From Heliophilum fasciatum (GTDB taxonomy: Bacteria; Bacillota; Desulfitobacteriia; Heliobacteriales; Heliobacteriaceae): a stretch of DNA of 24,000 nt. Location: the NCBI RefSeq assembly GCF_004341395.1, contig NZ_SLXT01000001.1:111748-135747 (forward strand). The letters are read 5' to 3'. The translations under genes were made by a program, and so were the position numbers. Positions 1 through 23,685 of this stretch are shown in pieces. The notes below the pieces were generated by a model that ran no database searches, was not told the origin of the DNA, and was given only the letters and a program-made list of their open reading frames with translations. Every line of letters begins with the position of its first letter. Position 1 is the first letter of the stretch.

Positions 1-248
1 TACTCAATCTCTCTTTTGATCTCCAGGCTGGCTACCTCATGACGGAGACAAGCGATTTCTTGATAATCCATCGTATCAAGAATGTGTCGGGCCACTTTCT
101 CTGCTTCGATAATTCGTTTAAAATCAGATCGGGCCTGAAAGAAATTCTTTAATTTATCACCAAGCTGCCAGACTCGATTGCGTAAATATTTTGCCGCTCC
201 GTAACCGTTTTGAAAATGGTCTAATAATCGCTGATTGATATTCTCCAT
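1..248 (-). CDS. hypothetical protein, N-terminal 82 codons (gene runs off the window start)
   Basis: Absent from the ORF track because it is truncated by the window edge. ATG at 248..246 has GAGGAGGG (261..254) 5 nt upstream. The frame is open to position 1 (MENINQRLLDHFQNGYGAAKYLRNRVWQLGDKLKNFF...). No family recognised. Confidence 0.5.
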   Translation of the reverse strand, partial: MENINQRLLDHFQNGYGAAKYLRNRVWQLGDKLKNFFQARSDFKRIIEAEKVARHILDTMDYQEIACLRHEVASLEIKREIE

Positions 249-433
249 GCAAACCCTCCTCATGAAAGCAACGGTACTGATTATTGTGGTTCCCCAACAA
301 GCGGCACTTTTTGTGTTCATTAATCTATGATGCCGTTGTCGGGTTGATACCGTGTACTTCATTTTTCTGGGTAGCAGTGCACAAAAGACAACGAAGATAA
401 GGTGAAAAACAGATAATAACGAGGAGGGTACGA

Positions 434-1867
434 ATGCGTATCAATCACAATATACCGGCAATGAATACCTATCTCTATCAGTCCAATAATACCGCCAAAG
501 CGACCAAAGTCATGGAAAAACTGTCTTCCGGCATGCGCATCAACGGCGCGTCCGATGATGCCGCCGGTTTAGCTGTGTCGGAAAAAATGCGCTCGCAAAT
601 CCGCGGCTTACGCCAAGCGGATCGGAACGCCTTAGACGGGATTTCCATGATCCAAACGGCCGAAGGCGGCCTTGCTCAGATCCAAGCATCATTGCAACGA
701 GTGCGTGAACTTTGCGTACAAGCGGCTAATGATACCTATAACCTGAGTGACCGGCAGGCTGTTCAAGAAGAAATCGATCAAATCATCAACGGGATTACTA
801 CGACCGTGAACACCACCGAATATAATAAGACCAAATTATTGCGCCCGCCGATCATCGAAGCCTCCACCGGCAACGGCAAAGCCGATATTGTCTTTGTCGT
901 CGATAATACAGGCAGCATGGCCGGAACCCAGACCAATGTGGCCAACAACCTCGGTGCATTCATCAACAGTGTTACCGGCAAAGGTGTTACTGAACTGCGC
1001 ATGGGCGTCCTGGAGTATACCGATTTTACGTATGACATCAAACAGTTTTCCAGCAGTCCCTGGACCGGCAACGCCACCGATATTCAAGATGCCTTACTTA
1101 AATTGGCTGCGACAAACTCGGGAGGCATTGAAAATGCCATGACCGCCCTGGAACTCGTCGCGAATCAATACAGCTTTCACGAAAATACCAACGGTGCCAT
1201 TACGAAGCATGTTGTGCTGGTCACCAATGAGAATGCCGATGATGAAGGTAAATTATCGGGTACATTAGCGCTCTTGCAATCCAAAGGAATTCGCGTTCAC
1301 GGAGTCTATGACAAAAATTTTTATGAAGGCACGGCCGACCTCGATACCCTCACCCAAGCTACCGGCGGAAAATCAGTCAATTTATCGAGCCCTTCCTGGG
1401 GGACGGAACTGATTGATGTGATCGGGGCATCGATCGGTTCCGACGCAACACCGATCGAATCTGATGAAATGCCCGTCATTACACTGCAAATCGGGGCGAA
1501 TCAAGGACAGACCTTTACGCTTCCCTTATTCGATTCAAGACCGGAAAAGCTGGGCCTCACCGGCCTTTCCGTAGCTACTCACCAATCCTGTCAAGAGGCC
1601 CTCGTCAAAACCGATGAAGCATTAAAAACCATCGCCTATCGACGGGCGCTCTACGGTGCTTATCAAAACCGCTTGGAGTTTGCCGGCAACATCACCGGCA
1701 GTTATCAGATCAACATTACCTCGGCTGAATCACGGATCCGCGATACCGATATGGCCCTAGCCATGGCCGATTACACCCGGACGAATATCATCGATCAGGC
1801 GGCAACGGCCATGTTGTCCCAGGCCAATCAATTGCCCCAGGGGATTTTACAACTGTTAAAGGCGTAA
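434..1867 (+). CDS. fliC: flagellin with a vWA-like domain replacing the central variable region
   Basis: GAGGAGGG lies 5 nt before the ATG. The N-terminus (MRINHN...GMRINGASDDAAGLAVSEKMRSQIRGL...QTAEGGL) and C-terminus (LQIGANQGQ...YGAYQNRLE...LSQANQLPQGILQLLKA) are canonical flagellin D0/D1. Residues ~148-335 start with DIVFVVDNTGSM (DxTxS MIDAS-like), followed by NSGGIENAMTAL and HVVLVTNENADD. Confidence 0.9.
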   Translation: MRINHNIPAMNTYLYQSNNTAKATKVMEKLSSGMRINGASDDAAGLAVSEKMRSQIRGLRQADRNALDGISMIQTAEGGLAQIQASLQRVRELCVQAANDTYNLSDRQAVQEEIDQIINGITTTVNTTEYNKTKLLRPPIIEASTGNGKADIVFVVDNTGSMAGTQTNVANNLGAFINSVTGKGVTELRMGVLEYTDFTYDIKQFSSSPWTGNATDIQDALLKLAATNSGGIENAMTALELVANQYSFHENTNGAITKHVVLVTNENADDEGKLSGTLALLQSKGIRVHGVYDKNFYEGTADLDTLTQATGGKSVNLSSPSWGTELIDVIGASIGSDATPIESDEMPVITLQIGANQGQTFTLPLFDSRPEKLGLTGLSVATHQSCQEALVKTDEALKTIAYRRALYGAYQNRLEFAGNITGSYQINITSAESRIRDTDMALAMADYTRTNIIDQAATAMLSQANQLPQGILQLLKA

Positions 1868-1879
1868 CCATAAAAAAAT

Positions 1880-1926
1880 ACCGCCAAAGGAAGTCACTCA
1901 CTGCAACTTCCCGGCGGTTTTTTCTT
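1880..1926. terminator. bidirectional rho-independent terminator
   Basis: ACCGCC-aaa-GGAAGT / ACTTCC-c-GGCGGT hairpin (1880..1918). It is followed by TTTTTTC on the plus strand and preceded by an A7 run, which gives a U-run on the minus strand. Confidence 0.85.
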
Positions 1927-3200: not shown

Positions 3201-3524
3201 CTACCGGAAAAGCTGCTTGAACTCACCCTTGAAGATTTTGAAGTTGAGCACCATGTGGGCAATCACCGGTAATACGATGCCGAAGCCCAGCAAAATATGC
3301 AGTCCCTTGAGCAGCTTACCGGACATGCCTAAGAACGTCCACCCTTGTACTGCGGCCGGACCGTGGGGTGCCACTAGTAAACCTAATCCCGTTACCGTGA
3401 CCACCATGCCGAAAAGAGCCAGCATCATGGAAATAATCGCTTTGGTTTTGCCATTGGATACCGCCTTAGCTTGTGTTGCCCGCTCGTTGAAACCTGCGGT
3501 CATTTGATTATTCATCGTACTCAT
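3201..3524 (-). CDS. small His-containing membrane protein, paralog A (tentatively DUF4405-like)
   Basis: Start MSTMNNQ with a GGGAGG RBS, matching the start of paralog B. It has a TM helix plus the motif LHILLGFGIVLPVIAHMVLNFK. By eye it is about 75% identical to the 4332..4664 product. Confidence 0.7.
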   Translation of the reverse strand: MSTMNNQMTAGFNERATQAKAVSNGKTKAIISMMLALFGMVVTVTGLGLLVAPHGPAAVQGWTFLGMSGKLLKGLHILLGFGIVLPVIAHMVLNFKIFKGEFKQLFR

Positions 3525-3567
3525 CGTGATAGCCTCCCGAATCATTTTGATTTCTTTCGATGGCTTT

Positions 3568-3702: not shown

Positions 3703-4194
3703 TTGATTACCATTGAAGCCGTCACTTCCACATCACAACTGGAACAAATCGGGGAACTCTTTCGTGAATACCAAATTTCTCTGGGCATTGACTTATGCTT
3801 TCAGGATTTTGAGCGCGAATTGGCCAACCTTCCCGGCAAGTATGCACCGCCGCAAGGGCGGCTTTATCTGGCGTTGTGCGACGGAATGCCCGCCGGCTCG
3901 ATCGCTTTACGTCCCCACCAAGATGATCAATGTGAGATGAAGCGCCTTTATGTGCGTCCGGCTTTTCGGGGCCGGCAGATCGCCCGGTTGCTGACCCGGC
4001 AAATCATTGCCGATGCTCAAGCGATCGGTTACCGGCAAATGGTTCTGGATACCTTGTCGACGATGACAGCAGCCTGTGCGCTTTATCAATCCTTAGGTTT
4101 TCAACCGATTCCACCGTACTGTTTTAATCCGCTCGCTCATGTTTGCTATCTGGGGCTAGACTTGACCCTGCAAGATAAGGAGTCTCGGCAATAA
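3703..4194 (+). CDS. GNAT family N-acetyltransferase
   Basis: Acetyl-CoA motif A is present: MKRLYVRPAFRGRQIARLLTRQII...GYRQMVLDT. The ~160 aa size fits the family. The start is TTG. Confidence 0.85.
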   Translation: MITIEAVTSTSQLEQIGELFREYQISLGIDLCFQDFERELANLPGKYAPPQGRLYLALCDGMPAGSIALRPHQDDQCEMKRLYVRPAFRGRQIARLLTRQIIADAQAIGYRQMVLDTLSTMTAACALYQSLGFQPIPPYCFNPLAHVCYLGLDLTLQDKESRQ

Positions 4195-4331: not shown

Positions 4332-4664
4332 TTACCGAAAAAGCTGTTTACACTCACCCATGAACATTTTGAAGTTGAGCACCATGTGCGCCATCACCGG
4401 CAACACCATCCCAAAGCCGAGCCAGATGTGTAAGTCTTTCATCACTCGGCCACTCATCCCCAGGAAAGTCCAGCCCTGAGCTGCTGCCGGTCCGTGCGGG
4501 GCCGCCATCAAACCCAAACCGGTTACGGTGACGATGATACCAAAAAGAGCCAGCATCATCGAAATAATCGCTTTGGTTTTCCCGGTCGATCCAGCTTTTG
4601 CACTTGTCGCTTTGGCTGCGAGACCGTTTAATTCTACCGTTATTTGATTGTTCATCGTACTCAT
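4332..4664 (-). CDS. small His-containing membrane protein, paralog B (tentatively DUF4405-like)
   Basis: Product MSTMNNQITVELNG...LHIWLGFGMVLPVMAHMVLNFK. A GGGAGG RBS precedes it. It is a paralog of 3201..3524. Confidence 0.75.
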   Translation of the reverse strand: MSTMNNQITVELNGLAAKATSAKAGSTGKTKAIISMMLALFGIIVTVTGLGLMAAPHGPAAAQGWTFLGMSGRVMKDLHIWLGFGMVLPVMAHMVLNFKMFMGECKQLFR

Positions 4665-4757: not shown

Positions 4758-5285
4758 CTACATTATTGAATTTTGCTGGAGGTACTGCAAAAGTTCTTGC
4801 CCGTGCTGCTGTTCTTCCTTCTGAATATGGTTAAAAGCCTGCCGCACTTGGGGATTGTTGAATTGGAAAATCGCTGAGTCATAGGAAGAAGAAATATACT
4901 GTTCCGTCACCAGCATGTCCCTGCACAACTGCAGATCATCCTCGTTTGCCTGTGAAGATGAACCGGCTACGGACGATAGCAGACCCTGGGACGCCATATT
5001 TTGTTGCTGCATGTTTGGGGACTGCTGCATGCTTTGCTGTTGCTGACCTTGTTGCTGACCTAGCTGCTGACCCTGCTGCTGGTTCATCGCCGGTACTTGA
5101 CCGCTCAAGATCTGATTGACCGTATTTAAGTGCTGCTGTTCGTGCTGGGCATGCTTTTGAAACATCTGCTTTAACACTGGGTCCTGCGCCTGTTGGGCAT
5201 AACTCTTGTACTTATAAACACAAAGCTGTTCATGAGATTGCTGATCTTCCAGTAAGCCCCGCTCCCGTTGGGTAAGTTGCAGCAT
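4758..5285 (-). CDS. CotF-like spore coat protein with a Gln-rich linker
   Basis: The ATG at 5285 has GGGAGG 7 nt upstream. There are two Coat-F-like helical halves (LLEDQQSHEQLCVYKYKSYAQQAQDPVLKQMF...; LCRDMLVTEQYISSSYDSAIFQFNNPQVRQAF...EEQQHGQEL). They are joined by QQQGQQLGQQQGQQQQSMQQSPNMQQQN (nt 4998..5084). Confidence 0.7.
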   Translation of the reverse strand: MLQLTQRERGLLEDQQSHEQLCVYKYKSYAQQAQDPVLKQMFQKHAQHEQQHLNTVNQILSGQVPAMNQQQGQQLGQQQGQQQQSMQQSPNMQQQNMASQGLLSSVAGSSSQANEDDLQLCRDMLVTEQYISSSYDSAIFQFNNPQVRQAFNHIQKEEQQHGQELLQYLQQNSIM

Positions 5286-5313
5286 GAACCATACCTCCCA
5301 AAACGTTTTAAAG

Positions 5314-7332
5314 CTAGTTTGGGAACGGAGACGCTGCTTTATACCCCCCAGCGGAGCAGGAAGACAATCCATTGATTACGGGCAGACAAATGATCAACGT
5401 CGTACCTTGACCTACCTTCGATTCCACATGAATCGAACCGCCGAGCAGTTCCACTTCCCGCTGAACCGCTGACAAGCCCACCCCTCGTCCGGAAATGATG
5501 CTAATATTGTCTTTGGTAGAAAAGCGATCACGAAAGATCAGCGCAATCACTTCCTGATCGGATAAGCATGCTGCCTCTTTTTCGCTGATCACTCCCTTGT
5601 TCAGCGCTTTGGCGCGGATCAACGCCGGATCGATTCCGTGCCCGTCATCGTGAATCCGCATCGTCAAAAAGTTGTTCGGGGCCGAGCGGATCTCGATGGC
5701 CACCGTACCGCTTTCCGGCTTACCGGCAGCCAAACGCGTATGACTGTCTTCAATCCCATGATCGACAATGTTACGAAAAATATGGTTCAAGGATTTACAA
5801 AAATCTTTGTAAGCACCTTGCTCGATAAAAATATCATCACCGGTAATTACCAGTGGCTGCAAAATTTTATCAAGGCGTATGGCCAGATTCTGTACATATT
5901 CATCATAGGATGCGACAATTTGTTTTAAATTTTTGCAACGCAGCCGTTTGATCAATGGCAACAGTTGATCCTGTTGTTCCGCTGAAAAGGCTTCTTGTAC
6001 ACGTCGTTCAATGTCGAGAATCTGTTCCGCCGTCACACAAAAAGATTGGCTCTGCCAGAAGAAGTCTTCGCCAAGGATATCGGTAATCGTTTCCATATCA
6101 CGGGCCAAAAAGGACTGATAATCAATGGTGCTGATCAAGTGTTCGATATCGCGCTGGGATATTTGATCAAATGATTCACACATGGCGGCCAGCCGGTCTT
6201 CCAGTTCATGAAGATGAAGAGCCGTATTCCGCAAGTACATCTGCGAGAAATCCCCTTTAAAAGTATGGACCGTACGAAAAATCACCGAAAGCTTCTCGGT
6301 CACCGGACAAGGGCTGGCCAGAATTTCATACACACTTCGGGTGAAAAACTCCCGCAGCCCTTCCATGCTGTTGATCATCTCGCTTTGGTTGGAAAGTGCC
6401 TTCAGCACCAACTGCAAGTTGTTTTTCTCGGCCTCCATCTTTTGTTCCAGCTCTTTTTTTTCCGTTACGTTGGTCATGATGGTCATGATCATCTTTTTTT
6501 CCGCTTGGGTAATCAGTTTGTACTCACAATGTAAAAATACATTTTTAATTTTGATTTCCTCAGGCAGTAAAGAGAGATAGACCTTCCTTTCCAGTTCCTT
6601 CTGGGTATTGAAAATACTTTGCAAAACCACCGCCAGGATTTGCTTTTGATCATTGGCGATATAATCGTTCAATACATCGACAAAATTCAGCCCGCCGATT
6701 TCTTGACCGAAAAGGCTGACACATTCCTTGCTGTACTCGGGGGAAATGATTAAGTCTTCCCCAAACAACAAAAAGCCTTGGCCGGCATTATCTAACAAGC
6801 TCTTGATCGTTTCTTTTTGTTTATGTAACAAGCGAAGTTGTTTTTCTCGCCGGCGGGCTAACTCCATGGTAAAGTTGCGGATGCTGATCACGCCCAGGTA
6901 GCGGGTTTGATCGTTGATGATGATAAAGTCGTATAAATTCTCCTGCGGGCGATTCATGGCCAAGGTACCCATATGGGTCAAATCCATAAAGTGCTGCAGA
7001 ATCAGCGGCGTCTTCTCCATCATTAAGCTTACTGGACGATTCAGATATAGTTCCCGTCCAAAAGGGCGGCCAATCTTACGGTAAAAATAATTGCGCATGA
7101 TTAAACCGACAGCACGATCATCATGCAAGACAACGATACCTTCCAGTGACTCCTGTGCTTCAAAGATCTGCTGCACCACCGAACCTTCAACGGTAACACT
7201 CACGGTGGGAACTTGTTGGATCAACTGATGAACGGTTACATCATACTGCTCATCATGAGACGAACGATCATGCTTGGCCAGCAAATTCAGATGTCGATAA
7301 GGATTGCTGAGGCTTTCTTCCCGTAATGCCAT
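5314..7332 (-). CDS. CheA-like histidine kinase: CBS pair, PAS-like, HPt(P1), P3-like, P4 (HATPase); no P2 or P5
   Basis: HPt motif FRTVHTFKGDFS. CheA-type ATP-binding region HIFRNIVDHGIED...GKPESGTV...DDGHGID...SGRGVGLSAVQ...GGSI...GQGTT. The protein ends 21 aa after the G2/LP region, so there is no CheW-like domain. N-terminal CBS-like repeats are present (GIVVLHDDRAVGLI, FIIINDQTRYLGVISI). The start is either ATG 7332 (TAGGAG, 6-nt spacing) or ATG 7338. Confidence 0.85.
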   Translation of the reverse strand: MALREESLSNPYRHLNLLAKHDRSSHDEQYDVTVHQLIQQVPTVSVTVEGSVVQQIFEAQESLEGIVVLHDDRAVGLIMRNYFYRKIGRPFGRELYLNRPVSLMMEKTPLILQHFMDLTHMGTLAMNRPQENLYDFIIINDQTRYLGVISIRNFTMELARRREKQLRLLHKQKETIKSLLDNAGQGFLLFGEDLIISPEYSKECVSLFGQEIGGLNFVDVLNDYIANDQKQILAVVLQSIFNTQKELERKVYLSLLPEEIKIKNVFLHCEYKLITQAEKKMIMTIMTNVTEKKELEQKMEAEKNNLQLVLKALSNQSEMINSMEGLREFFTRSVYEILASPCPVTEKLSVIFRTVHTFKGDFSQMYLRNTALHLHELEDRLAAMCESFDQISQRDIEHLISTIDYQSFLARDMETITDILGEDFFWQSQSFCVTAEQILDIERRVQEAFSAEQQDQLLPLIKRLRCKNLKQIVASYDEYVQNLAIRLDKILQPLVITGDDIFIEQGAYKDFCKSLNHIFRNIVDHGIEDSHTRLAAGKPESGTVAIEIRSAPNNFLTMRIHDDGHGIDPALIRAKALNKGVISEKEAACLSDQEVIALIFRDRFSTKDNISIISGRGVGLSAVQREVELLGGSIHVESKVGQGTTLIICLPVINGLSSCSAGGYKAASPFPN

Positions 7333-7418
7333 GGTCATCTCCTACTGTCGCCCGGAATCCTCCGGCTTCTGCTTGTATGGGCTTTCTGCTGTTGATTCGA
7401 TCGACCTTTTGCTCTGAC

Positions 7419-7781
7419 TTACGCATTCAGTGCATCATCAATAGCGGTCCGAACTGCGTTTTCATCAAACGGTTTGGTTACATAACATTTGGCCCCGTGG
7501 TGGACAGCTTCCAGGATCTTGGCTGCATGCCCCAACGCGGAGATCATAACCACTTTGGCCTGGGTATCCCTTTGGAGGATGGCCTGTAATGCCTTAATCC
7601 CGTTCATTTTCGGCATGGTGATGTCCATCGTGACCAAGTCCGGTTTTAATTCGCTGAATTTTTGGCAAGCTTCTTCGCCGTCAACGGCTTCACCGACGAC
7701 AGTATGCCCGGAAGTATGGATAATTCTCCTCAATGCACTGCGTGACAAGTTCGAATCGTCACAGATCAGAATGCGAGCCAA
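7419..7781 (-). CDS. CheY-like single-domain response regulator
   Basis: The receiver residues are all present: ILICDDS, LVTMDITMP, VVMISA, TKPF. I prefer the TTG at 7781 (AAGGAGG 8 nt upstream, immediately after the upstream TAA), which gives 120 aa. The track's 151-aa version overlaps the upstream gene. Confidence 0.85.
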   Translation of the reverse strand: MARILICDDSNLSRSALRRIIHTSGHTVVGEAVDGEEACQKFSELKPDLVTMDITMPKMNGIKALQAILQRDTQAKVVMISALGHAAKILEAVHHGAKCYVTKPFDENAVRTAIDDALNA

Positions 7782-7794
7782 CCTTGATTCCTCC

Positions 7795-8721
7795 TTAAAC
7801 TGTTCCTTGTTCATCCTTGGACTGCTGTTCCAGCAGGTGTACCCCTTCAGCGATAAGGTAATCAAAATGTCCAAAGGTCATATGAACGGGAATGCGAAAA
7901 AAAGGTTTACTGTTACATAGCGATTGCCTTTTCAGGGCCACCGGCGGCAACAACTCCACCATGACGCCTCGCTGAGCAAGCGAAGCCTCAACCATGCCTC
8001 CGACAATGTTCAAGAGTTCACAAAGCGAATCGGCCATTTCGTTATCATCGACATTCATCGATTCCGCGAATAGCCTGGCTAATTTATTGAGTTTATCAAA
8101 GTTGCCGCCAACACCGACCAAGACGGTATAGTCACCTTGCATGACACTAAACATCAAATATTCAAAATCGTAATTCGTCAGCTTCTCCAAAGGCCCAAAT
8201 TGAAAGGATGCCTCAATAAACTTGATTACCTTGACAAAGGAAATCAGGCTGCTGCCGAAAATGGGGTCGGCAAATTCCATGGTGGTCTCGAAGGCCGTAA
8301 GTTCATCCATCATCATTTCTACACTCTCTTTTTGCAACGGTTCAACGGCAGCAGGATCACTTGTCGATTGTGATTTGTATTCGTCGATCAGCCTTTCAAT
8401 TTGCTCATAATCGAAAAATCCTTGGTTGACCAGCACTTGGCTAAAGGTAAGGTAGCTATGGATCGGTTGATCAAAAAGCTCTTCCATTTGGGCAATCGTT
8501 AGAAACCCTTCTTGAATGGCGATTTCACCGAAGCTTTTATCGCTTGCCCGTTGCAGTCGGTGAATGCGATCGACTTGTGCACCAGTCATGTAATCGCTGT
8601 CAATGGCCAGAAGACCAAGTTTGACCCGCACAAATTGTTGGGCCGCCAACACTTCATCTAATTGCTCCAACGTCAAGATATTCCTCTGGTGGATAAAATC
8701 GTAAAAATATTGGCGATACAT
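7795..8721 (-). CDS. CheX-like CheY-P phosphatase fused to an N-terminal four-fold helical repeat domain (MshEN/T2SSE_N-like)
   Basis: The C-terminal half has DSLCELLNIVGG...x21..P, close to the CheC/CheX/FliY signature D/S-x3-E-x2-N-x22-P, and it occurs once only. The N-terminal 125 aa hold four repeats of the type hGxhhhxxGhhTxxQhxxhhxxQ. The ATG is at 8721. Confidence 0.7.
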   Translation of the reverse strand: MYRQYFYDFIHQRNILTLEQLDEVLAAQQFVRVKLGLLAIDSDYMTGAQVDRIHRLQRASDKSFGEIAIQEGFLTIAQMEELFDQPIHSYLTFSQVLVNQGFFDYEQIERLIDEYKSQSTSDPAAVEPLQKESVEMMMDELTAFETTMEFADPIFGSSLISFVKVIKFIEASFQFGPLEKLTNYDFEYLMFSVMQGDYTVLVGVGGNFDKLNKLARLFAESMNVDDNEMADSLCELLNIVGGMVEASLAQRGVMVELLPPVALKRQSLCNSKPFFRIPVHMTFGHFDYLIAEGVHLLEQQSKDEQGTV

Positions 8722-8780
8722 GATTGCCTCACTCTCAAGATGCCATCGGAAAAGCCAACTTATATCCGGTTTTGTGTTAA

Positions 8781-8808
8781 CCCTGGAAAAATCATAGCAA
8801 ACCACCTT
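8781..8808 (-). promoter_or_regulatory. candidate sigma-A-type promoter for the CheX-CheY-kinase operon
   Basis: On the minus strand: TTGATG (8808..8803), 16 nt, TATGAT (8786..8781). It lies about 60 nt upstream of the ATG. Confidence 0.45.
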
Positions 8809-8843: not shown

Positions 8844-8881
8844 ACTTATAAACCCTCCATCCCGCTACGCGATGGAGGGTT
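8844..8881 (-). terminator. terminator after crcB
   Basis: Perfect 11-bp stem AACCCTCCATC / GATGGAGGGTT with a 9-nt loop. It starts at the crcB stop codon and is followed by UUUAUAAGUUU, a moderate U tract. Confidence 0.6.
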
Positions 8882-9258
8882 TACCCCAGAAAATAACCTA
8901 GCCCACAAGCCAGCAATCCCATGACCGTTGTACCCAAGAGATAGGTAAAAAATTTATCCCATTTGCCCAACTCAATCAAACGTACCGCTTCATAGCCAAA
9001 GGTTGAAAAGGTCGTATAGGCACCTAAAAAGCCGATCTGCCATCCATAGCGTTCCACCAGGGCCGCCATCGAGCCATCATCGGTTACTGATTCCAGATGG
9101 GCCGCCGAAAGCCCAAGCAAAAAGGCCCCGGTAACATTGATGAACATGGTCATCCAGGGAATCTTCGCCCCCGGCCAGCGTTTGCCGCTCCACAGCGCCA
9201 GCCCGTAGCGCAGCCAGGCGCCACCAATACCGCCCAACCCAATCCACAACAATTCCAT
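8881..9258 (-). CDS. crcB: fluoride ion channel CrcB/Fluc, second subunit
   Basis: Product MELLWIGLGGIGGAWLRY...GFLGAYTTFSTF. The ATG at 9258 has an AGGAGG RBS that overlaps the upstream stop. Confidence 0.9.
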   Translation of the reverse strand: MELLWIGLGGIGGAWLRYGLALWSGKRWPGAKIPWMTMFINVTGAFLLGLSAAHLESVTDDGSMAALVERYGWQIGFLGAYTTFSTFGYEAVRLIELGKWDKFFTYLLGTTVMGLLACGLGYFLG

Positions 9259-9262
9259 CGGT

Positions 9263-9706
9263 TTATTCCTCCTGCGCCGGCTGACCTTCGGTTCGCGCAC
9301 CTTGCGATCGGTGGTGCCGTCGCTGGGCCCGCTCCAAGTTGCGCGCCCAGAACACACCCAGCGCCGACAAAACGGTGCCGCCAGCGATGCTGGCCATCAG
9401 GTAGATCCCTAAGGACCAAAAAGCCCGGCTGTTCAAGAGATAAACACATTCTAACGTAAAGGTTGAAAAAGTAGTAAAAGCCCCTAAAAAACCGGTGCCC
9501 AATCCCACCCGGATGGAGGGGCGTACAGAATAGTATTCAAGGGTAATTGTCAAAAAGAAAGCGAGCACCAAGCAGCCGCTCAAGTTAATAAGCAGCGTTC
9601 CCCAGGGAAAACCGCTCTGGGCCACCCAAGGAGCGCACCACTGCCCCATCTCATAGCGCAGGATCGCCCCAAGGAACCCTCCGATGCCGACGGCCAATAA
9701 CTGCAT
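9263..9706 (-). CDS. crcB: fluoride ion channel CrcB/Fluc, first subunit, with a charged C-terminal tail
   Basis: Product MQLLAVGIGGFLGAILRY...GFLGAFTTFSTF. A GAGGAG RBS precedes it. The extra tail is NLERAQRRHHRSQGARTEGQPAQEE. Confidence 0.9.
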   Translation of the reverse strand: MQLLAVGIGGFLGAILRYEMGQWCAPWVAQSGFPWGTLLINLSGCLVLAFFLTITLEYYSVRPSIRVGLGTGFLGAFTTFSTFTLECVYLLNSRAFWSLGIYLMASIAGGTVLSALGVFWARNLERAQRRHHRSQGARTEGQPAQEE

Positions 9707-14061: not shown

Positions 14062-15135
14062 TTGAACACTTTGGTAAGACGCGACGAACTGACCTCGTTA
14101 GAACGAATCGCCACCGCACTCCAGTATAAAAAACCCGATCGCGTACCTGTTGCCCCCTTGGTTTGTGGTGCCTCCCACCGGGTCTTAGGAACAAGCTATG
14201 ACAAATGGTCCATGGACGCCGACTTGGCAACCAGAAGCCTCCTGGCCGCCCATGAGATCATCGGATTTGATTCCTTCTTGACCCTGGTCGATTTATCGGT
14301 CGAGGCCTACGACTTTGGACAGGAAGTTGTTTTTCCCAAGAACAGCACCGCCTACACCGAAACAAGCAATCCATTGATCAAAACGGTCGAGGACTATTAC
14401 AAACTTACGCCCATCAATCCCCGGGAAACCACACGGATGAGCATGGTTATCGACATGTGCGCCGGACTGTCGAAGGCTCGCGGCAAAGACACCGCCGTCA
14501 TCGGCTTCGTCTATGGCCCTTTAGGTGTGCTTTCCCAACTGCGCGGTCATGAGCGGATGTTTGTCGACTGCATTCGCCACCCTGAGGCGATTCTTCATGC
14601 CGTAGAAGTGCTTACTGAAGTGCTGATTGAATATGCGAAAGCCCAGATCGAAGCAGGTGCCCATGCGATATGTATTGATACCCTCTACGCGTCAGGGAGC
14701 ATTATGAGTAAGCGCATGTGGGAAAAATTCGAAGGTCCCTTTGCCAAGCGCATTGCCGATGCGATTCGCGCAGCCGGGGTAACCGTATTGCTCCATAACT
14801 GCGGCAATAAAATCTATTTTGACGTCCAGGAAAAATGGTGCAATCCCACAGCCATCTCCCATGCCTACCCCTCCGATGACTGCGCTGACTGGGATGAACA
14901 TGCCCGGAAATGGGGGAAGAAAATCGTCACCATCGGCTACTCCGTTCCATCCGATACGGGGATCATGATGAGCCCGGAAGAAATCATGGAAGATTGCCGC
15001 AAGCAGATCGAAACGTTTAAAGATTGCGACGGCGGGTTTATCTTGGCCACCGGCTGCGAATTCCCCCCAAACGGTAATTTATTAAGCGCCATCGCTATGG
15101 TAAACGCCTCCAAAACATACGGCCGTTACAGCTAA
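14062..15135 (+). CDS. URO-D family (MtaA/CmuA-like) corrinoid methyltransferase
   Basis: N-terminal KPDRVPVAP. Zn-ligand pattern LLHNCGN ... ATGCEFPPN. The ~350 aa size fits the family. The start is TTG at 14062 or TTG at 14071; AAGGAAG ends at 14061. Confidence 0.85.
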   Translation: MNTLVRRDELTSLERIATALQYKKPDRVPVAPLVCGASHRVLGTSYDKWSMDADLATRSLLAAHEIIGFDSFLTLVDLSVEAYDFGQEVVFPKNSTAYTETSNPLIKTVEDYYKLTPINPRETTRMSMVIDMCAGLSKARGKDTAVIGFVYGPLGVLSQLRGHERMFVDCIRHPEAILHAVEVLTEVLIEYAKAQIEAGAHAICIDTLYASGSIMSKRMWEKFEGPFAKRIADAIRAAGVTVLLHNCGNKIYFDVQEKWCNPTAISHAYPSDDCADWDEHARKWGKKIVTIGYSVPSDTGIMMSPEEIMEDCRKQIETFKDCDGGFILATGCEFPPNGNLLSAIAMVNASKTYGRYS

Positions 15136-15296
15136 ACCGTTCAGGTGATTTCTCTACCCTGAAAATCCCCTCGCTGTTGCTTTCATCCTTTGGGGTGCTA
15201 CATAGCAGCATGTTGTCTATTTTACCCGAAGTGCTCAGCGTGCGATCAAGCTTACCGGATTAATTGCAAAGTAATAAAAAGGAAGTGACTGTCCTA

Positions 15297-15944
15297 ATGT
15301 CAGAACTGAAAGATAAATTATTCCAAGAGCTTTCCGATGCCGTTGTGGATATGGATGAGGATAAGACGGTAGCGACCAGCCATCGCGTGATCGAGGAAGG
15401 CATCGACGCATATGAAGCGATTGAAAACGGCCTCGCCCATGGCATGGATCGAGTCGGCGAGCTTTTTGACCAAGAAGAATACTTCATTCCCGAAGTGTTG
15501 ATGAGTTCCGACGCCATGTATGCCGGTGTGGAAGTGCTGAAACCCCATCTGAAGGCGACCGAGCAGGGAGAAAAAACCAAAGTCGTCATCGGTGTTGTTG
15601 AAGGCGATACCCATGATATTGGCAAAAACCTCGTCAAAATTATGCTCGAGACCTCTGGTTTTGAAGTCATCGACTTGGGTCGGGATATTCCACCGCAGCA
15701 GTTTGTCGACAAAGCTACTGAAGTAGGTGCCCAGATCATCGGACTGGCGACCTTGATGACAACCACCATGGATGGCATGCACGAAGTCATTCGCATCTTG
15801 GAACAAAAAAATATTCGCAGCCAGTTCAAGGTGATGATCGGTGGCGGACCGATCTCACAGGCCTTTGCCGATAAAATCGGTGCTGACAGTTACGCCGTCA
15901 ATGCAGCCGACGCCGTGAGAAAAGCACGAAAACTGGTCAGCTAA
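15297..15944 (+). CDS. cobalamin-binding corrinoid protein (MtaC/MtbC-like)
   Basis: DxHxxG motif (EGDTHDIGKN), S/TxL (GLATLMTTT) and GG (MIGGGP), plus the N-terminal helical cap domain. The ATG at 15297 has AAGGAAGTGA 8 nt upstream. Confidence 0.9.
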   Translation: MSELKDKLFQELSDAVVDMDEDKTVATSHRVIEEGIDAYEAIENGLAHGMDRVGELFDQEEYFIPEVLMSSDAMYAGVEVLKPHLKATEQGEKTKVVIGVVEGDTHDIGKNLVKIMLETSGFEVIDLGRDIPPQQFVDKATEVGAQIIGLATLMTTTMDGMHEVIRILEQKNIRSQFKVMIGGGPISQAFADKIGADSYAVNAADAVRKARKLVS

Positions 15945-20285: not shown

Positions 20286-20939
20286 TTATTTCAACGGCTC
20301 CAGCAGCCGTTTATAGTAAAATCCCGTATTATACAGCGCTGCTGCCGGGTTATGGCCGAGCACGCGATCCTTAACGATCAATGTGGTCACTGGCGCCTCT
20401 GAATACTTGATAAACATGGAGTCATGACCTACACAAAGGCCGATGATCACGTTGAGATCGGTTTTTTCACGGTTTAGCAGGCGTGCTTGCATCACCGGAT
20501 TGCATAGGGACTCATGGCATCCCTGGTTGACTTTCATCGACTCGGGAATACCGATCTCCGTCTTATCGATCGCGCCGACCTTGCAAAGGACGCTGTAATT
20601 CTCCAGGCCGTTGATCGCTAGAATGCGCGCGAACACCTTCGCTTCTTGACTTAAACCGATGCACGTAGCCAGTCCAATCTTTTTGGCTCCGATGCGCTTG
20701 GCAAAAGCGACAATCTCCTCGACACGGGTCAGCCTGCCGTAATAGGTACCTTCCACCTCTGCAGCCGCTTTGGTGAGCCGGGCAATCGCCGGATCTTCCT
20801 GGTAAAGCGTCTTTAGTTCTTCACGTTCCGTTGCTGTGATCGCCGTCGTCAGGCAAAAAGCAGGGAACGTTCCTTCGGCCGGACGGGCACAATTCAAGAC
20901 GCCGCAATCGGAACAGCTCAATGTTTTTTTCTCACTCAT
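20286..20939 (-). CDS. DUF1847-type Cys-rich metal-binding protein
   Basis: CSDCGVLNC...PAFC, CHESLCNP, IIGLCVGHD and KDRVLGHNP match my recollection of DUF1847. The ATG is at 20939. Confidence 0.6.
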   Translation of the reverse strand: MSEKKTLSCSDCGVLNCARPAEGTFPAFCLTTAITATEREELKTLYQEDPAIARLTKAAAEVEGTYYGRLTRVEEIVAFAKRIGAKKIGLATCIGLSQEAKVFARILAINGLENYSVLCKVGAIDKTEIGIPESMKVNQGCHESLCNPVMQARLLNREKTDLNVIIGLCVGHDSMFIKYSEAPVTTLIVKDRVLGHNPAAALYNTGFYYKRLLEPLK

Positions 20940-20962
20940 TGGTGTACCTGTCACTCCTGCAC

Positions 20963-22657
20963 TTAAAAATTCAAACTCTCCACAAAGACCCGATCAAAAC
21001 CGGGGTCATGGGCCAGTTCCACGACATCCACCGTATCGACCCAAGCCTGAGCCGTCGTCCGCAACGGTTCATGAACCAGCAATGCCTGCCCGCCGGTCAG
21101 TGCCGTATTGCCGACAAACTCGATCTTCCCGGCAAAGTCCGCCGGCAACAGACCGATATCGATCAAACTCCGTGCGCGCAAATGGTAGCCGAAGGAGCCG
21201 GCAATCAGCACCTGATCCACATCCGCCAGTGTCAGCCCCTCCCGTTTTAACATCATTTCAATACCGGCACGAACTGCCCCCTTGGCCAGTTGAACTTGGC
21301 GCACATCTTTTTGCGTCAGATAGACATCGCCGTCCACATAAAAGACGGTTTTGCCTTCACGCGGCTGTAGCCGTTCGGCCAACGCCGGCAGCAACTGGGT
21401 TCGCCCTGGATCGGCCCAGCGGCCGGTGGGCTGAAGTACTCCGTGGCGGACAAGTTCCCCTACCAGATCGATCAAGCCGCTGCCACAGATGCCGACGGCA
21501 GGCGCTTGCCCGATCGTCTCGACCGATAGGGTTCCATCGTCTTCAACCGTAAACCGTTCGACGGCACCGGCTGCAGCGCGCATGCCGCAAGCGATGTTCA
21601 TGCCCTCAAAAGCAGGACCGGCTGCCGTCGATGTGGCCAACAACCGGCCATCGCGGGCCAAGATCATCTCGCCGTTCGTACCGATGTCGACAAACAGCGT
21701 TGTCCCGACCCGGGACGCCAGTTCCGCCGCAACGACACCGGCGGTGATATCAGCTCCTACATAGGCCGAGATGATCGGCGGGAGATAGATCCGCCCCCAC
21801 GGCGCGATTGCCAACCCATGGGCTTGCGCTTCGATCACTCTGCCGCCGCGTTCCAAGGGATCATAGGGATAACGCCCCAGCGAGGTGGGATCCTGCCCGG
21901 TGGCCAGGTGCAGCATACAGGTGTTGCCCGAAAAGACAACTTCATAGATCTGCCGGCGATCAACGCCGCTTTGCCGGCAGACCTGGCCGATTAAATCATG
22001 CAGTTCCCCGATCAATCCCGCATAGAGCCGCTCCAAGCCTTGGGGCTCGCCGGCCAGCTTAATGCGCGAGAGCACATCCTGGGCATGCAAACTCTGTGGA
22101 TTCAGCGCTGATGATTTCGCCGTTTCCTGACCGGTATGTAAGGAAACCAGGGAAACGACCAGCGTCGTTGTCCCGATATCCACAACGACTCCCCACAAAT
22201 CGGCAACGGTATTACCCGTTTCACTCCCCAGGCATTCCTCTTCCCCGGTTTGCCTGTTGAGGGCCAATACGTCCGTTCGTTGCAACAGCGGATCATAGCG
22301 CTTACGGATGGCCGCATCAGCGATCACATCCAGTGCTTTTCCCTGACCGATGATCTGCATCGCTGCGGGCTGTCGTGCTGATGACGGCAAGAAAACTTCA
22401 ATATCGTCGAGCACTTCAGTCACGCAGGCCAAAACCGTGCCCTTCGCTTGATCGTCAACGGTGACATCATGGTGAGCCGCTTGCCGAATGCGATGGTGCC
22501 AAGCCGGGTCCACCTGTACACGGCACTTGCCGCAGGTACCGGCACAATTGCAAGGGGATTCGATCAATACACCAGCTTGCCGGGCCGCCGCCAAGATCGT
22601 TGTTCCCGCGGCAACGTCAATCGATGTCCCACCGGGCAGAAAGGTTACGCGAGCCAT
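20963..22657 (-). CDS. reductive activator of corrinoid enzymes (RACE/RACo-type; 2Fe-2S ferredoxin plus ASKHA ATPase)
   Basis: N-terminal CNCAGTCGKCRV...LAC ferredoxin motif. ASKHA phosphate motifs VVDIGTTT and FVDIGTNGE. The ATG at 22657 has GAGGAGGTG 7 nt upstream and overlaps the upstream gene by 13 nt. Confidence 0.85.
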   Translation of the reverse strand: MARVTFLPGGTSIDVAAGTTILAAARQAGVLIESPCNCAGTCGKCRVQVDPAWHHRIRQAAHHDVTVDDQAKGTVLACVTEVLDDIEVFLPSSARQPAAMQIIGQGKALDVIADAAIRKRYDPLLQRTDVLALNRQTGEEECLGSETGNTVADLWGVVVDIGTTTLVVSLVSLHTGQETAKSSALNPQSLHAQDVLSRIKLAGEPQGLERLYAGLIGELHDLIGQVCRQSGVDRRQIYEVVFSGNTCMLHLATGQDPTSLGRYPYDPLERGGRVIEAQAHGLAIAPWGRIYLPPIISAYVGADITAGVVAAELASRVGTTLFVDIGTNGEMILARDGRLLATSTAAGPAFEGMNIACGMRAAAGAVERFTVEDDGTLSVETIGQAPAVGICGSGLIDLVGELVRHGVLQPTGRWADPGRTQLLPALAERLQPREGKTVFYVDGDVYLTQKDVRQVQLAKGAVRAGIEMMLKREGLTLADVDQVLIAGSFGYHLRARSLIDIGLLPADFAGKIEFVGNTALTGGQALLVHEPLRTTAQAWVDTVDVVELAHDPGFDRVFVESLNF

Positions 22658-23685
22658 CCTCGGGCACCTCCTCGCACCGTCTCGGTCAACGCCTGGATCT
22701 TCGCGATCGACGTGGATGTACTCAAGCCGCAAGCCGGGGCAATGATATCGACCTGATCCCTGACCAGTTGTTCCGCCTGCCTTGCCACTTGATCAGCCGA
22801 ACCAAACTCCAGCAAATAGGTGCTCAAATTACCCATCGTCGTCAACGCCGGAAAATCTTCCTTGAGCCGCCTGAGACTGACCATCGCATCGGTGCTGATC
22901 GCATCCGAGCGAATCGCCGGGATCAAGTGGCGGACCGCTTTCATATCGCCGCAGATATGTACAATCACCGGTGCGCCGACGGCGTGAATGCCATCGATCA
23001 CCTGGTTCAAATAAGGCACCGCAAACTCTTCAAAACACTTGGGGCCTAAAATCTCCCCCGTTGCCGTCGGATCGCCGATGGAGATCACCGTCGCGCCGTT
23101 GTCGATCAACTCTTGGGCAAATTCCACAAGATGGCGGCTCACATAATCGAGTACGCGATGCACTTGTGCTTTGTTCTTGCGCAGTTCCTTAAAGAAGTTC
23201 ATCGGATCGATGATCGAAGCAGCCGTACTGATCGGTCCCGTCAAGTTACCGACAATGGGCACATCGGGACGGGCACGGTGCAAATGATAAGCGGCCTGGA
23301 TCACTGTGGCCGTGCGTCCCGTACCCATGCGGTACGCTCCATCGCGAAACTGAACCTGATCGGCCGAAGCAAACAATTCCCGGGCAATTTTCGGTTCACA
23401 AGCCAGCGTACCGTAATCAACATCAGCCCCCAACACTTCCGCTTCCACGGTCATGCAAAAGGGAATCCCCAGATTTTCAAACCCCGTATAGTCATGAATA
23501 TCCAGGGCGATTTGGGCCATTTTTTGCGCGTCATGATGTCCTTCGGGCAAGGTGTGACCGGTTTGATTCATCACGTCCACAATGGCTGCGTTCATCATCC
23601 CGCCAGGGCAAATCACGGGCGGGCGATCGGTCGTTTTTTTCTGTAATACCCGTTGTAATCGTTCTTGAGGACTGAGTGAACTCAT
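22645..23685 (-). CDS. URO-D family (MtaA/MtbA-like) corrinoid methyltransferase
   Basis: N-terminal TDRPPVICPGGMM. Zn-ligand pattern IVHICGD ... IIAPACGLS. Confidence 0.85.
   Translation of the reverse strand: MSSLSPQERLQRVLQKKTTDRPPVICPGGMMNAAIVDVMNQTGHTLPEGHHDAQKMAQIALDIHDYTGFENLGIPFCMTVEAEVLGADVDYGTLACEPKIARELFASADQVQFRDGAYRMGTGRTATVIQAAYHLHRARPDVPIVGNLTGPISTAASIIDPMNFFKELRKNKAQVHRVLDYVSRHLVEFAQELIDNGATVISIGDPTATGEILGPKCFEEFAVPYLNQVIDGIHAVGAPVIVHICGDMKAVRHLIPAIRSDAISTDAMVSLRRLKEDFPALTTMGNLSTYLLEFGSADQVARQAEQLVRDQVDIIAPACGLSTSTSIAKIQALTETVRGGARGWLA

What the first reader, a model, noticed from the sequence alone, without database searches (positions are those of the whole stretch)
875..1438. 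Flagellin carrying a vWA-like domain where the surface-exposed D2/D3 region should be
Seen in sequence:
- Residues 1-135 and ~345-477 are textbook flagellin D0/D1.
- The ~190 residues between them start with a hydrophobic strand plus DxTxS (DIVFVVDNTGSM).
- NSGGIENAMTAL and HVVLVTNENADD follow, in the spacing expected for a von Willebrand A (Rossmann-like) fold.
- The MIDAS looks only partly intact: Ile/Glu sits where the Thr normally is, and Asn where the second Asp is.

Established knowledge: the variable region faces outward on the polymerised filament. It can hold whole functional domains, as in the flagellinolysin metallopeptidase flagellins.

Inference: each filament would display thousands of copies of a vWA domain. 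That suggests an adhesive or ligand/metal-binding flagellum. I do not know of a characterised vWA-flagellin.
Basis: partly seen in the sequence, partly recalled or inferred. Interest (0 to 1): 0.8.

Follow-up and report, generated by a model that had tools for sequence, protein, structure and literature searches.

The report
Flagellin with a vWA outer domain
This gene from the bundle-forming phototroph Heliophilum fasciatum encodes a flagellin whose outward-facing middle part is a complete von Willebrand A (integrin I-domain-like) binding module; this architecture was listed in a 2017 survey but never studied, and it could explain how this organism's cells stick together and swim as a raft.

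Summary
ORF 434-1867 (+) encodes a 477-aa protein, 100% identical to an NCBI 'flagellin [Heliophilum fasciatum]'.

- **Domains:** Pfam finds Flagellin_N (residues 3-136), VWA (151-299, E 8.7e-12, above the curated cut-off) and Flagellin_C (392-475).
- **Fold:** an AlphaFold model of the insert (pLDDT 82, pTM 0.82) matches integrin alpha2 I-domain, collagen VI, CMG2 and vWF A1 (Foldseek probability 1.0).
- **Insertion site:** the 212-residue insert replaces an 8-residue loop at the D1 tip, where outer domains emerge.
- **MIDAS:** the site is modified. D157-x-T159-x-S161 is kept. Glu233 sits where the MIDAS Thr should be, and Asn265 where the Asp should be. These positions are strongly conserved across 37 vWA-flagellins.
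- **Distribution:** about 30 of the top 150 hits (one representative per 50%-identity cluster) are vWA-flagellins, in Bacilli, Clostridia and Synergistota. A FlgK also carries the insert.
- **Prior art:** Eckhard et al. 2017 list 'vWFA' as the eighth most frequent domain in flagellin hypervariable regions (21 sequences), without characterising it.

My best reading is a secondary flagellin that displays a binding module along the filament. Incorporation into the filament and any ligand are untested. A link to the unexplained motile cell bundles of H. fasciatum is plausible but speculative.

The parts
434..1867 (+). Complete flagellin ORF (477 aa plus TAA stop), 100% identical to NCBI 'flagellin [Heliophilum fasciatum]'
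423..428 (+). Shine-Dalgarno GGAGGG, 5 nt before the ATG
   Evidence: read directly from the sequence
434..841 (+). N-terminal D0/D1 helices (residues 1-136)
   Evidence: Pfam Flagellin_N 3-136, E 1.9e-39. Aligns to residues 1-138 of Kurthia flagellin 6t17. 63% identical to the N-terminus of the second H. fasciatum flagellin P0092.
842..874 (+). Linker 1 (residues 137-147, RPPIIEASTGN). The RPP motif recurs across the family.
   Evidence: pLDDT below 50 at residues 142-147; alignment A1
875..1441 (+). vWA (I-domain-like) outer domain, residues 148-336. No cysteine; pI 4.5.
   Evidence: Pfam VWA. Model with alternating beta-alpha-beta elements, pLDDT 82, pTM 0.82. Foldseek hits to integrin alpha2 I-domain, collagen VI N5, CMG2 and vWF A1, probability 1.0, TM about 0.6-0.65. 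Composition.
902..916 (+). MIDAS motif 1: D157-N-T159-G-S161 (a DxTxS form of DxSxS)
   Evidence: D157 in 37/37, T or S at 159 in 37/37, and S161 in 37/37 vWA-flagellins
1127..1132 (+). I232-E233. E233 occupies the position of the MIDAS threonine.
   Evidence: HMMER alignment to integrin alpha2 (E on T221). Glu in 33/37 family members.
1223..1231 (+). T264-N265-E266. N265 occupies the position of the second MIDAS aspartate.
   Evidence: Alignment to integrin alpha2 D254. T264 in 35/37; position 265 is D in 20 and N in 17; E266 in 25/37.
1442..1477 (+). Linker 2 (residues 337-348)
   Evidence: pLDDT below 50 at residues 338-341
1478..1864 (+). C-terminal D1/D0 (residues 349-477), including the D1 beta-hairpin and the LQLLKA end
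   Evidence: Pfam Flagellin_C 392-475. Aligns to 6t17 residues 147-275. Strands at 348-352 and 360-364, helix 383-476.
1880..1923 (+). Intrinsic terminator: ACCGCC...GGCGG stem followed by T6. The gene is monocistronic.
   Evidence: RNA fold -19.7 kcal/mol, z -5.5 against shuffles
1..248 (-). 5' end of a divergent gene for a 426-aa protein with no Pfam match. It is a neighbour, not shown to be related to the flagellin.

Best explanation
This is a genuine flagellin paralogue, not a chance resemblance.

**Shown**
- The conserved N- and C-terminal helices are those that form the D0/D1 filament core.
- At the tip of D1, where other flagellins carry D2/D3, this protein carries a complete vWA domain of about 190 residues on two short flexible linkers.
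- The domain has no cysteine.

**Inferred mechanism**
- The protein is exported unfolded through the flagellar type III channel and polymerises under the FliD cap. It probably co-assembles with the plain 274-aa flagellin of the same genome.
- The vWA domain folds outside the cell. In vWA/I-domains the chain termini lie opposite the metal-ion-dependent adhesion site (MIDAS), so that face should point away from the filament.
- The filament would then carry roughly 2,000 copies per micrometre of a conserved, modified MIDAS (Asp157, Thr159, Ser161, Glu233, Asn265/Glu266). This would act as a multivalent, probably cation-dependent binding surface: an adhesive flagellum.
- The partner is unknown. 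Candidates are other flagella or cell surfaces (raft formation) and environmental surfaces.
For: **Identity as a flagellin**
- Pfam Flagellin_N and Flagellin_C are both present.
- PDB flagellins match with E values from 1e-62 down, covering residues 1-136 and 349-475.
- The full-length model matches filament structures.

**vWA fold:**

**Insertion at the outer-domain site:**

**Selection on the MIDAS face**
- Across 37 vWA-flagellins that are only 28-57% identical overall, D157, T/S159 and S161 are invariant.
- E233 is present in 33/37, T264 in 35/37, and position 265 is always D or N.

**A real, recurrent family**
- About 30 of the top 150 hits (one representative per 50%-identity cluster) have flagellin termini around the vWA match.
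- Named carriers are Bacillus alveayuensis, Alteribacillus, Lysinibacillus macroides, Pontibacillus yanchengensis, Halanaerobiales, Mobilitalea and Fretibacterium.

**Link to the flagellar regulon in relatives**
- sigma-D-type promoters lie upstream of two homologues: TAAA-N15-GCCGATAT and TAAT-N16-GCCGATAT.
- One homologue lies between csrA and flaG-fliD-fliT-fliS.

**Export compatibility:** no Cys in the insert.

**Expression signals:** Shine-Dalgarno sequence and the gene's own terminator.

**Precedents**
- Flagellinolysin, a domain-bearing flagellin, co-assembles with a plain flagellin and is the second most abundant flagellar protein (PMC5595980).
- vWA domains are the adhesive modules of the fimbrial subunit Mfa5 (a hit) and of integrins.
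Against: - There is no evidence that the protein is expressed or present in filaments.
- The gene is an orphan, far from other flagellar genes, in H. fasciatum and in five other genomes.
- No sigma-D-like promoter is recognisable upstream in H. fasciatum.
- The MIDAS departs from the canonical form at two of five positions (Thr to Glu, Asp to Asn), so metal binding is not assured.
- The one homologue found inside a flagellar locus is frameshifted in its assembly.
Confidence: 0.55

Rival explanations
1. Structural sheath. The vWA domains contact each other on the filament surface, possibly with the MIDAS of one subunit binding an acidic residue of a neighbour. This would form an outer layer that stiffens the filament or changes its waveform or hydrodynamics. 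There would be no external ligand.
For: - Outer domains of other flagellins are described as structural or lattice-forming, and their functions are mostly unknown (PMC11532411).
- The conserved acidic motifs E233, E266 and D269 could serve as internal ligands.
- The insert is about the size of a typical D2/D3 region (212 residues).
Against: - A full vWA with a conserved MIDAS-like face is a costly way to build a spacer.
- Solved vWA relatives found here are ligand-binding modules: integrin I-domains, CMG2, collagen VI, PTMP1, Mfa5.
- The two roles do not exclude each other.
Confidence: 0.2
2. Not a bulk filament subunit. The protein is silent, or a minor or position-specific flagellin, or a flagellin-like protein secreted through the flagellar export apparatus that acts as a soluble vWA protein.
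For: - The gene is an orphan with no recognisable sigma-D promoter in H. fasciatum.
- A second, plain 274-aa flagellin exists in the genome.
- The C-terminal D1/D0 is only 45% identical to that paralogue.
- NCBIfam flagellin models score below their curated cut-offs (251 bits against 352 for Hag).
- One relative is frameshifted.
Against: - The D0/D1 segments are intact and 60-66% identical to ordinary Firmicute flagellins over the N-terminal region.
- The ORF, Shine-Dalgarno sequence and terminator are all intact.
- The family is conserved across phyla with the architecture preserved.
- Orphan location is common for secondary flagellins.
- The low NCBIfam scores are expected, because those whole-protein models are scored against a protein carrying a 212-residue insert.
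Confidence: 0.2
3. The vWA-like region is a chance or low-complexity resemblance, or a different Rossmann-like fold such as an enzyme.
For: The canonical MIDAS Thr and second Asp are absent in this protein.
Against: - Pfam VWA matches in 8 of 8 family members, best E 1.3e-15.
- The insert profile hits collagen VI and integrin I-domains.
- The top 50 Foldseek matches (all at E 2.4e-7 or better) are all vWA or I-domains.
- There is no HExxH motif and no peptidase or other enzyme family hit.
Confidence: 0.02

Closest known systems
vWFA-containing flagellins catalogued by Eckhard et al. 2017 (Nat Commun 8:521, PMC5595980, Table 1: 'vWFA', rank 8, 21 sequences)
   Same: The architecture is the same: flagellin N-terminus, a vWFA domain in the hypervariable region, flagellin C-terminus.
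   Different: That paper only counts the domain. It gives no sequences in the main text and no analysis of MIDAS, structure, distribution or function. The H. fasciatum protein and its possible link to bundle motility are not mentioned there or in the genome paper (PMC9147875).
Flagellinolysin (FlaMP/FliA(H)) of Clostridium haemolyticum
   Same: A whole functional domain is inserted at the D1 tip of a Firmicute flagellin and displayed in thousands of copies. It is encoded alongside a plain structural flagellin with which it co-assembles.
   Different: The insert there is a zinc metallopeptidase with an HExxH motif, and its activity on filaments has been shown. Here the insert is a vWA binding module, no HExxH is present, and nothing has been shown experimentally.
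Integrin alpha I-domains (alpha2, alpha1, alphaM, alphaL)
   Same: These are the best structural and profile matches. They share the fold and the DxSxS-type first MIDAS motif. Both are domains inserted into a loop of a host domain.
   Different: Sequence identity is only 13-18%. The MIDAS Thr is replaced by Glu233 and the second Asp by Asn265. The context is prokaryotic and polymeric.
vWA adhesins on other bacterial filaments: Mfa5 of Porphyromonas gingivalis fimbriae, and (from general knowledge) the sortase-pilus tip adhesins RrgA, GBS104 and SpaC, and PilY1
   Same: A vWA domain is presented on an extracellular filament as the adhesive module. Mfa5 was a direct profile hit (6tnj, E 0.0017).
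   Different: Those proteins are accessory or tip subunits, present in one or a few copies per fibre (general knowledge). Here every subunit of the polymer would carry the domain.
CmoA of Paenibacillus sp. NAIST15-1 (PMC5072692)
   Same: It is a vWFA-domain extracellular protein of a Firmicute, encoded in the flagellar operon. It is needed for moving cell clusters, and its authors proposed that it interacts with flagella linking cells.
   Different: CmoA is a separate Sec-secreted 1,064-aa protein with eight IPT/TIG domains. It is not a flagellin. No direct homology to the insert was shown here.

Membership tests
Bacterial flagellin (FliC/Hag) | N-terminal helical region (Pfam PF00669) | tested here: met
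   Residues 3-136, E 1.9e-39, 135 bits against a cut-off of 26.6
Bacterial flagellin (FliC/Hag) | C-terminal helical region (Pfam PF00700) | tested here: met
   Residues 392-475, E 7.6e-20, 71.5 bits against a cut-off of 23
Bacterial flagellin (FliC/Hag) | Variable region inserted at the D1 tip between the N- and C-terminal D1 segments | tested here: met
   Query residues 1-136 and 349-475 align to 6t17 residues 1-138 and 147-275
Bacterial flagellin (FliC/Hag) | Score above the curated NCBIfam flagellin cut-offs | tested here: not met
   The best model is Hag NF009446, 251 bits against a cut-off of 352. A shortfall is expected, because these whole-protein models are scored against a protein with a 212-residue foreign insert. 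FlgL (TIGR02550) scores much lower, 109 bits.
Bacterial flagellin (FliC/Hag) | Late flagellar (sigma-D/FliA) promoter or location in a flagellar locus | tested here: inconclusive
   None is recognisable in window 1-433. GCCGATAT -10 boxes lie upstream of two homologues, and one homologue sits inside a flagellar locus. In H. fasciatum the gene is an orphan.
Bacterial flagellin (FliC/Hag) | Polymerises into the filament | not testable with these tools
   Needs proteomics or cryo-EM of flagella
von Willebrand factor A domain (Pfam PF00092, clan vWA-like) | Profile match above the gathering threshold | tested here: met
   46-47 bits against 23.8; VWA_2 29.9-30.4 bits against 27
von Willebrand factor A domain (Pfam PF00092, clan vWA-like) | Alpha/beta Rossmann-like fold with a central sheet flanked by helices | tested here: met
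   Model elements E12-21, H24-45, E49-59, E64-66, H78-91, H99-109, E120-127, H135-147, E150-156, H165-173, E178-180, H186-201. Foldseek probability 1.0 to many solved vWA domains.
von Willebrand factor A domain (Pfam PF00092, clan vWA-like) | MIDAS motif 1, DxSxS | tested here: met
   D157-N-T159-G-S161 (Thr in place of the first Ser). Invariant as D-x-[TS]-x-S in 37/37.
von Willebrand factor A domain (Pfam PF00092, clan vWA-like) | MIDAS threonine (T221 of integrin alpha2) | tested here: not met
   Glu233 aligns there. Glu is present in 33/37 vWA-flagellins.
von Willebrand factor A domain (Pfam PF00092, clan vWA-like) | Second MIDAS aspartate (D254 of integrin alpha2) | tested here: not met
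   Asn265 in this protein. Asp is present in 20/37 family members, and Glu266 follows in 25/37.
von Willebrand factor A domain (Pfam PF00092, clan vWA-like) | Divalent cation bound at the MIDAS | not testable with these tools
   Needs ITC, ICP-MS or a crystal structure of the recombinant domain
Flagellinolysin (NCBIfam NF033876, M9-like metallopeptidase flagellins) | HExxH zinc-binding motif and peptidase domain in the hypervariable region | tested here: not met
   No HExxH motif. NF033876 scores 35 bits against a cut-off of 205. No peptidase family appears in Pfam.
vWFA-flagellins (domain architecture listed in PMC5595980, Table 1) | Flagellin N- and C-terminal domains with a vWFA domain in the hypervariable region | tested here: met

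The most novel reading that the evidence does not exclude
The vWA-flagellin is the missing 'glue' behind the defining phenotype of Heliophilum fasciatum, whose rafts of parallel cells swim as one unit.
- Filaments carrying thousands of outward-facing MIDAS-like sites would bind, in a cation-dependent way, to acidic groups on neighbouring filaments or cell walls.
- This would produce the intercellular flagellar aggregates seen in the original description.
- The genome paper found no explanation for the phenotype and pointed to flagellar bundling (PMC9147875).
- More broadly, vWA inserts in flagellin and in FlgK (Oceanobacillus limi) would mark a class of flagella specialised for cell-cell or cell-surface tethering.
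Probability: 0.15. Interest if true: 0.8.

Novelty: new member of a known kind. Interest (0 to 1): 0.5.

Why it matters
Flagellar filaments are usually treated as propellers, and the functions of their outer domains are mostly unknown. The only naturally occurring, functionally proven 'payload' flagellin known to me is flagellinolysin.

A flagellin that carries an integrin-like I-domain on every subunit would be a second clear case of a filament doubling as a functional surface, here a highly multivalent adhesin. The family is small but spread over several phyla, and its putative binding site is conserved, so it is open to one or two focused experiments.

In H. fasciatum it offers the first concrete molecular candidate for the motile cell bundles described in 1996, which the 2022 genome analysis left unexplained. 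It could also serve as a natural scaffold for surface display.

Tried and rejected
- **Insert-only homologue search.** The search for homologous proteins with the 211-aa insert returned nothing. With the insert profile it returned only short proteins. This looks like a length bias in how candidates are collected, so I used the exhaustive representative search instead.
- **Genome scan.** It gave no useful flagellin loci, and H. fasciatum itself was not returned.
- **Promoter.** No convincing sigma-D promoter was found in H. fasciatum. The sigma-70 scan found nothing on the + strand in the intergenic region 249-433.
- **RNA families.** Rfam found nothing in the window.
- **Second flagellin.** The genomic context of P0092 could not be retrieved.
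- **CmoA link.** The insert's relatives of about 1,060 aa carry Ig-like Big_2 or CARDB domains, not TIG domains, so I dropped a direct link to CmoA.
- **MoxR neighbour.** A MoxR-DUF58-transglutaminase operon lies next to the B. alveayuensis gene. I judge this coincidental, because from my memory of B. subtilis it is the conserved groEL...yeaC-yeaD-yebA-guaA synteny.
- **Recent acquisition.** The insert's GC and GC3 (0.507 and 0.564) match the flanking parts of the gene, so I rejected recent acquisition of the insert.
- **Literature.** Searches for 'von Willebrand' or 'VWA' with 'flagellin' missed the 2017 table because it spells the name 'Willibrand'. It was found by reading Table 1.
Full report
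**What is in the sequence**

The finding's interval 875-1438 lies inside one ORF, 434-1867 on the + strand, encoding 477 aa. It corresponds in frame to residues 148-335. The gene has a GGAGGG ribosome-binding site 5 nt before the ATG. It also has its own strong terminator hairpin at 1880-1923 (-19.7 kcal/mol, z -5.5), so it is monocistronic. The protein is 100% identical to an NCBI entry named 'flagellin [Heliophilum fasciatum]'. The window therefore comes from this heliobacterium.

**Checking the observation**

- Pfam finds Flagellin_N (3-136, 1.9e-39), VWA PF00092 (151-299, 8.7e-12, 46 bits against a gathering score of 23.8), VWA_2 (29.9 against 27) and Flagellin_C (392-475, 7.6e-20).
- Solved flagellins match only residues 1-136 and 349-475. 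Against the Kurthia flagellin 6t17, which has no outer domain, the 212 residues 137-348 replace an 8-residue loop at the tip of D1. This is where outer domains emerge.

**Is the insert really a vWA domain?**

- All eight close family members match Pfam VWA, best E 1.3e-15.
- A profile of the inserts hits vWA domains of collagen VI, the mussel thread protein PTMP1, the I-domains of integrins alpha2, alpha1, alphaM and alphaL, and the fimbrial subunit Mfa5 in the PDB.
- An AlphaFold model of the insert alone has pLDDT 82.3 and pTM 0.82, with the alternating beta-alpha pattern of the fold.
- Foldseek places the model with the integrin alpha2 I-domain, the TFIIH p44 vWA, collagen VI N5, integrin beta I-like domains, CMG2 and vWF A1. 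Probability is 1.00 and TM is about 0.6-0.65.
- The full-length model has the expected helical core and low-confidence linkers at residues 142-147 and 338-341.

**The MIDAS**

HMMER's alignment to the integrin alpha2 I-domain gives the following correspondences:

| Integrin alpha2 | This protein |
|---|---|
| DESNS | D157-N-T159-G-S161 |
| L220-T221 | I232-E233 |
| T-D254-G | T264-N265-E266 |

I then collected 37 vWA-flagellin inserts that are only about 28-57% identical overall. These positions are among the best conserved:

| Position | Residue count (of 37) |
|---|---|
| 157 | D 37 |
| 159 | T or S 37 |
| 161 | S 37 |
| 233 | E 33 |
| 264 | T 35 |
| 265 | D 20, N 17 |
| 266 | E 25 |

Two sequence subtypes appear. 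One reads 'GG[T/I]EN ... TN/DE.ADD', as in H. fasciatum. The other reads 'GGGD..ES.LEA ... TDAP.HD'. Conservation of this face argues that it is functional. Whether it still binds a metal cannot be decided here.

The insert has no cysteine and is acidic (pI 4.4). The lack of cysteine fits export in an unfolded state and folding outside the cell.

**How common is it?**

An exhaustive HMMER search with the insert, against 1.84 billion cluster representatives, gave 569 hits at E of 1e-3 or better and 15 at 1e-30 or better. Checking the top 150 with the flagellin termini showed about 30 representatives that are flagellins with the vWA in the middle. Most are 460-500 aa, but some are giants of 737, 751 and 1,031 aa.

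Named carriers are Bacillus alveayuensis, Alteribacillus sp., Lysinibacillus macroides, Pontibacillus yanchengensis, a Halanaerobiales MAG, a Mobilitalea MAG and Fretibacterium. One hit is a FlgK hook-associated protein of Oceanobacillus limi with a vWA insert. The nearest non-flagellar relatives are very large surface-type proteins that combine vWA with Ig-like domains.

**Genomic context**

- In H. fasciatum the gene is an orphan. Its neighbours are metabolic genes, a GDSL lipase, DUF4405 proteins, and a CheX-like/response-regulator/kinase cluster about 3.5 kb downstream. No flagellar structural genes are nearby.
- The homologues in Alteribacillus, B. alveayuensis and three metagenomic or unnamed assemblies are orphans too.
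- Two homologues have sigma-D-type promoters, one a perfect TAAA-N15-GCCGATAT.
- In one assembled contig a vWA-flagellin lies in the canonical late flagellar locus, between csrA plus a 504-aa flagellin and flaG-fliD-fliT-fliS. It is frameshifted in that assembly.
- I found no sigma-D-like promoter upstream in H. fasciatum.
- H. fasciatum also encodes a plain 274-aa flagellin. It is 63% identical to this protein in the N-terminal region and 45% in the C-terminal region.

**Most likely mechanism**

Shown:
- The protein is a flagellin.
- It carries a vWA-fold domain at the outer-domain position.
- Its MIDAS-like face is conserved.

Inferred:
- It is exported by the flagellar type III system and co-polymerises with the plain flagellin. 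Flagellinolysin does this in C. haemolyticum, where it is the second most abundant flagellar protein (PMC5595980).
- In I-domains the chain termini lie opposite the MIDAS (established knowledge of integrin I-domains), so the MIDAS-like face should point outward.
- At about 20,000 subunits per 10 micrometres (PMC5595980), the filament would be a highly multivalent binding surface, probably cation-dependent.

Rivals:
- The domains might mainly contact each other and form a sheath.
- The protein might be silent, minor or secreted.

I give the adhesive-filament reading about 0.55.

**Comparison with the literature**

My first searches for flagellin with 'von Willebrand' or 'VWA' found nothing relevant. 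The 2024 survey of 682 outer-domain structural clusters does not mention vWA. However, Table 1 of the flagellinolysin paper lists 'vWFA (von Willibrand Factor A)' as the eighth most frequent conserved domain in flagellin hypervariable regions, with 21 sequences and no further comment. The architecture is thus catalogued but uncharacterised, and this protein is a new member of it.

**The H. fasciatum angle**

The genome paper is titled for the organism's bundle-forming habit. [quoted passage not shown] It suggests intercellular bundling of flagella and notes that flagellar aggregates were seen in the original description. It never mentions flagellin or vWA (PMC9147875).

A vWFA-domain extracellular protein encoded in the flagellar operon, CmoA, is required for moving cell clusters in Paenibacillus. 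Its authors proposed that it interacts with flagella (PMC5072692). I could not show homology between CmoA and this insert.

The vWA-flagellin is therefore a concrete, testable candidate for the inter-cell tether. I put this at about 0.15, because other carriers of vWA-flagellins are not known to form bundles and expression is unproven.

**Verdict**

It is not unprecedented as an architecture, but it is functionally unexplored and has an appealing, testable link to an unexplained phenotype. Interest 0.5.

Noticed in passing
P0145 (hit; Oceanobacillus limi FlgK, WP_090867567.1): A flagellar hook-associated protein FlgK (FlgK_D1 100-351, Flg_bbr_C 665-703) carries a vWA domain at 380-532. That domain is 33% identical to the flagellin insert. 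So vWA insertion has occurred in a second flagellar axial protein.
   Followed up: partly
P0179 (1031 aa), P0258 (751 aa), P0167 (737 aa, Fretibacterium): These are giant flagellins in which the vWA domain is only one part of a much larger outer region.
   Followed up: partly
L074:7924-9352 (Logan SRR19357510): A vWA-flagellin gene lies in a canonical late flagellar locus: flgM-flgN-flgK-flgL-DUF6470-fliW-csrA-flagellin(504 aa)-[vWA-flagellin]-flaG-fliD-fliT-fliS. It is split by a frameshift near 'TGGNLLI*'. This is either a pseudogene or an assembly error.
   Followed up: partly
L003:11646-15990 (Bacillus alveayuensis): A MoxR AAA+ ATPase, DUF58 and transglutaminase operon lies directly downstream of the vWA-flagellin. 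MoxR ATPases often partner vWA proteins. Here it is probably the conserved groEL...yeaC-yeaD-yebA-guaA synteny, and so a coincidence.
   Followed up: no
window 3201-3545 (-) and 4332-4664 (-): Two paralogous small DUF4405 membrane proteins (114 and 110 aa, with very similar sequences) flank a GNAT acetyltransferase gene at 3703-4194 (+).
   Followed up: no
window 4758-5372 (-): A CotF-like spore-coat-family protein with a long glutamine-rich low-complexity stretch (QQQGQQLGQQQGQQQQSMQQSPNMQQQ).
   Followed up: no
window 5314-8805 (-): A cluster of a 674-aa HATPase_c kinase with no other recognised domain, a single-domain response regulator, and a 336-aa protein with a weak CheX match. It may be a chemotaxis-like signalling module about 3.5 kb from the flagellin gene.
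   Followed up: no
window 8881-9706 (-): A pair of crcB (fluoride channel) genes. No fluoride riboswitch or any other Rfam family reached the gathering score anywhere in the window.
   Followed up: partly
window 1-248 (-) / L001:8535-9815: The divergently transcribed neighbour encodes a 426-aa protein with no Pfam match at E of 0.01 or better. Its function is unknown.
   Followed up: partly
window 14062-15944 and 20286-23685: Two URO-D/MtaA-like methyltransferases, a corrinoid (B12-binding) protein, a RACo-type corrinoid activase and DUF1847. Together they look like a corrinoid-dependent methyltransferase system. It is unrelated to the finding.
   Followed up: no
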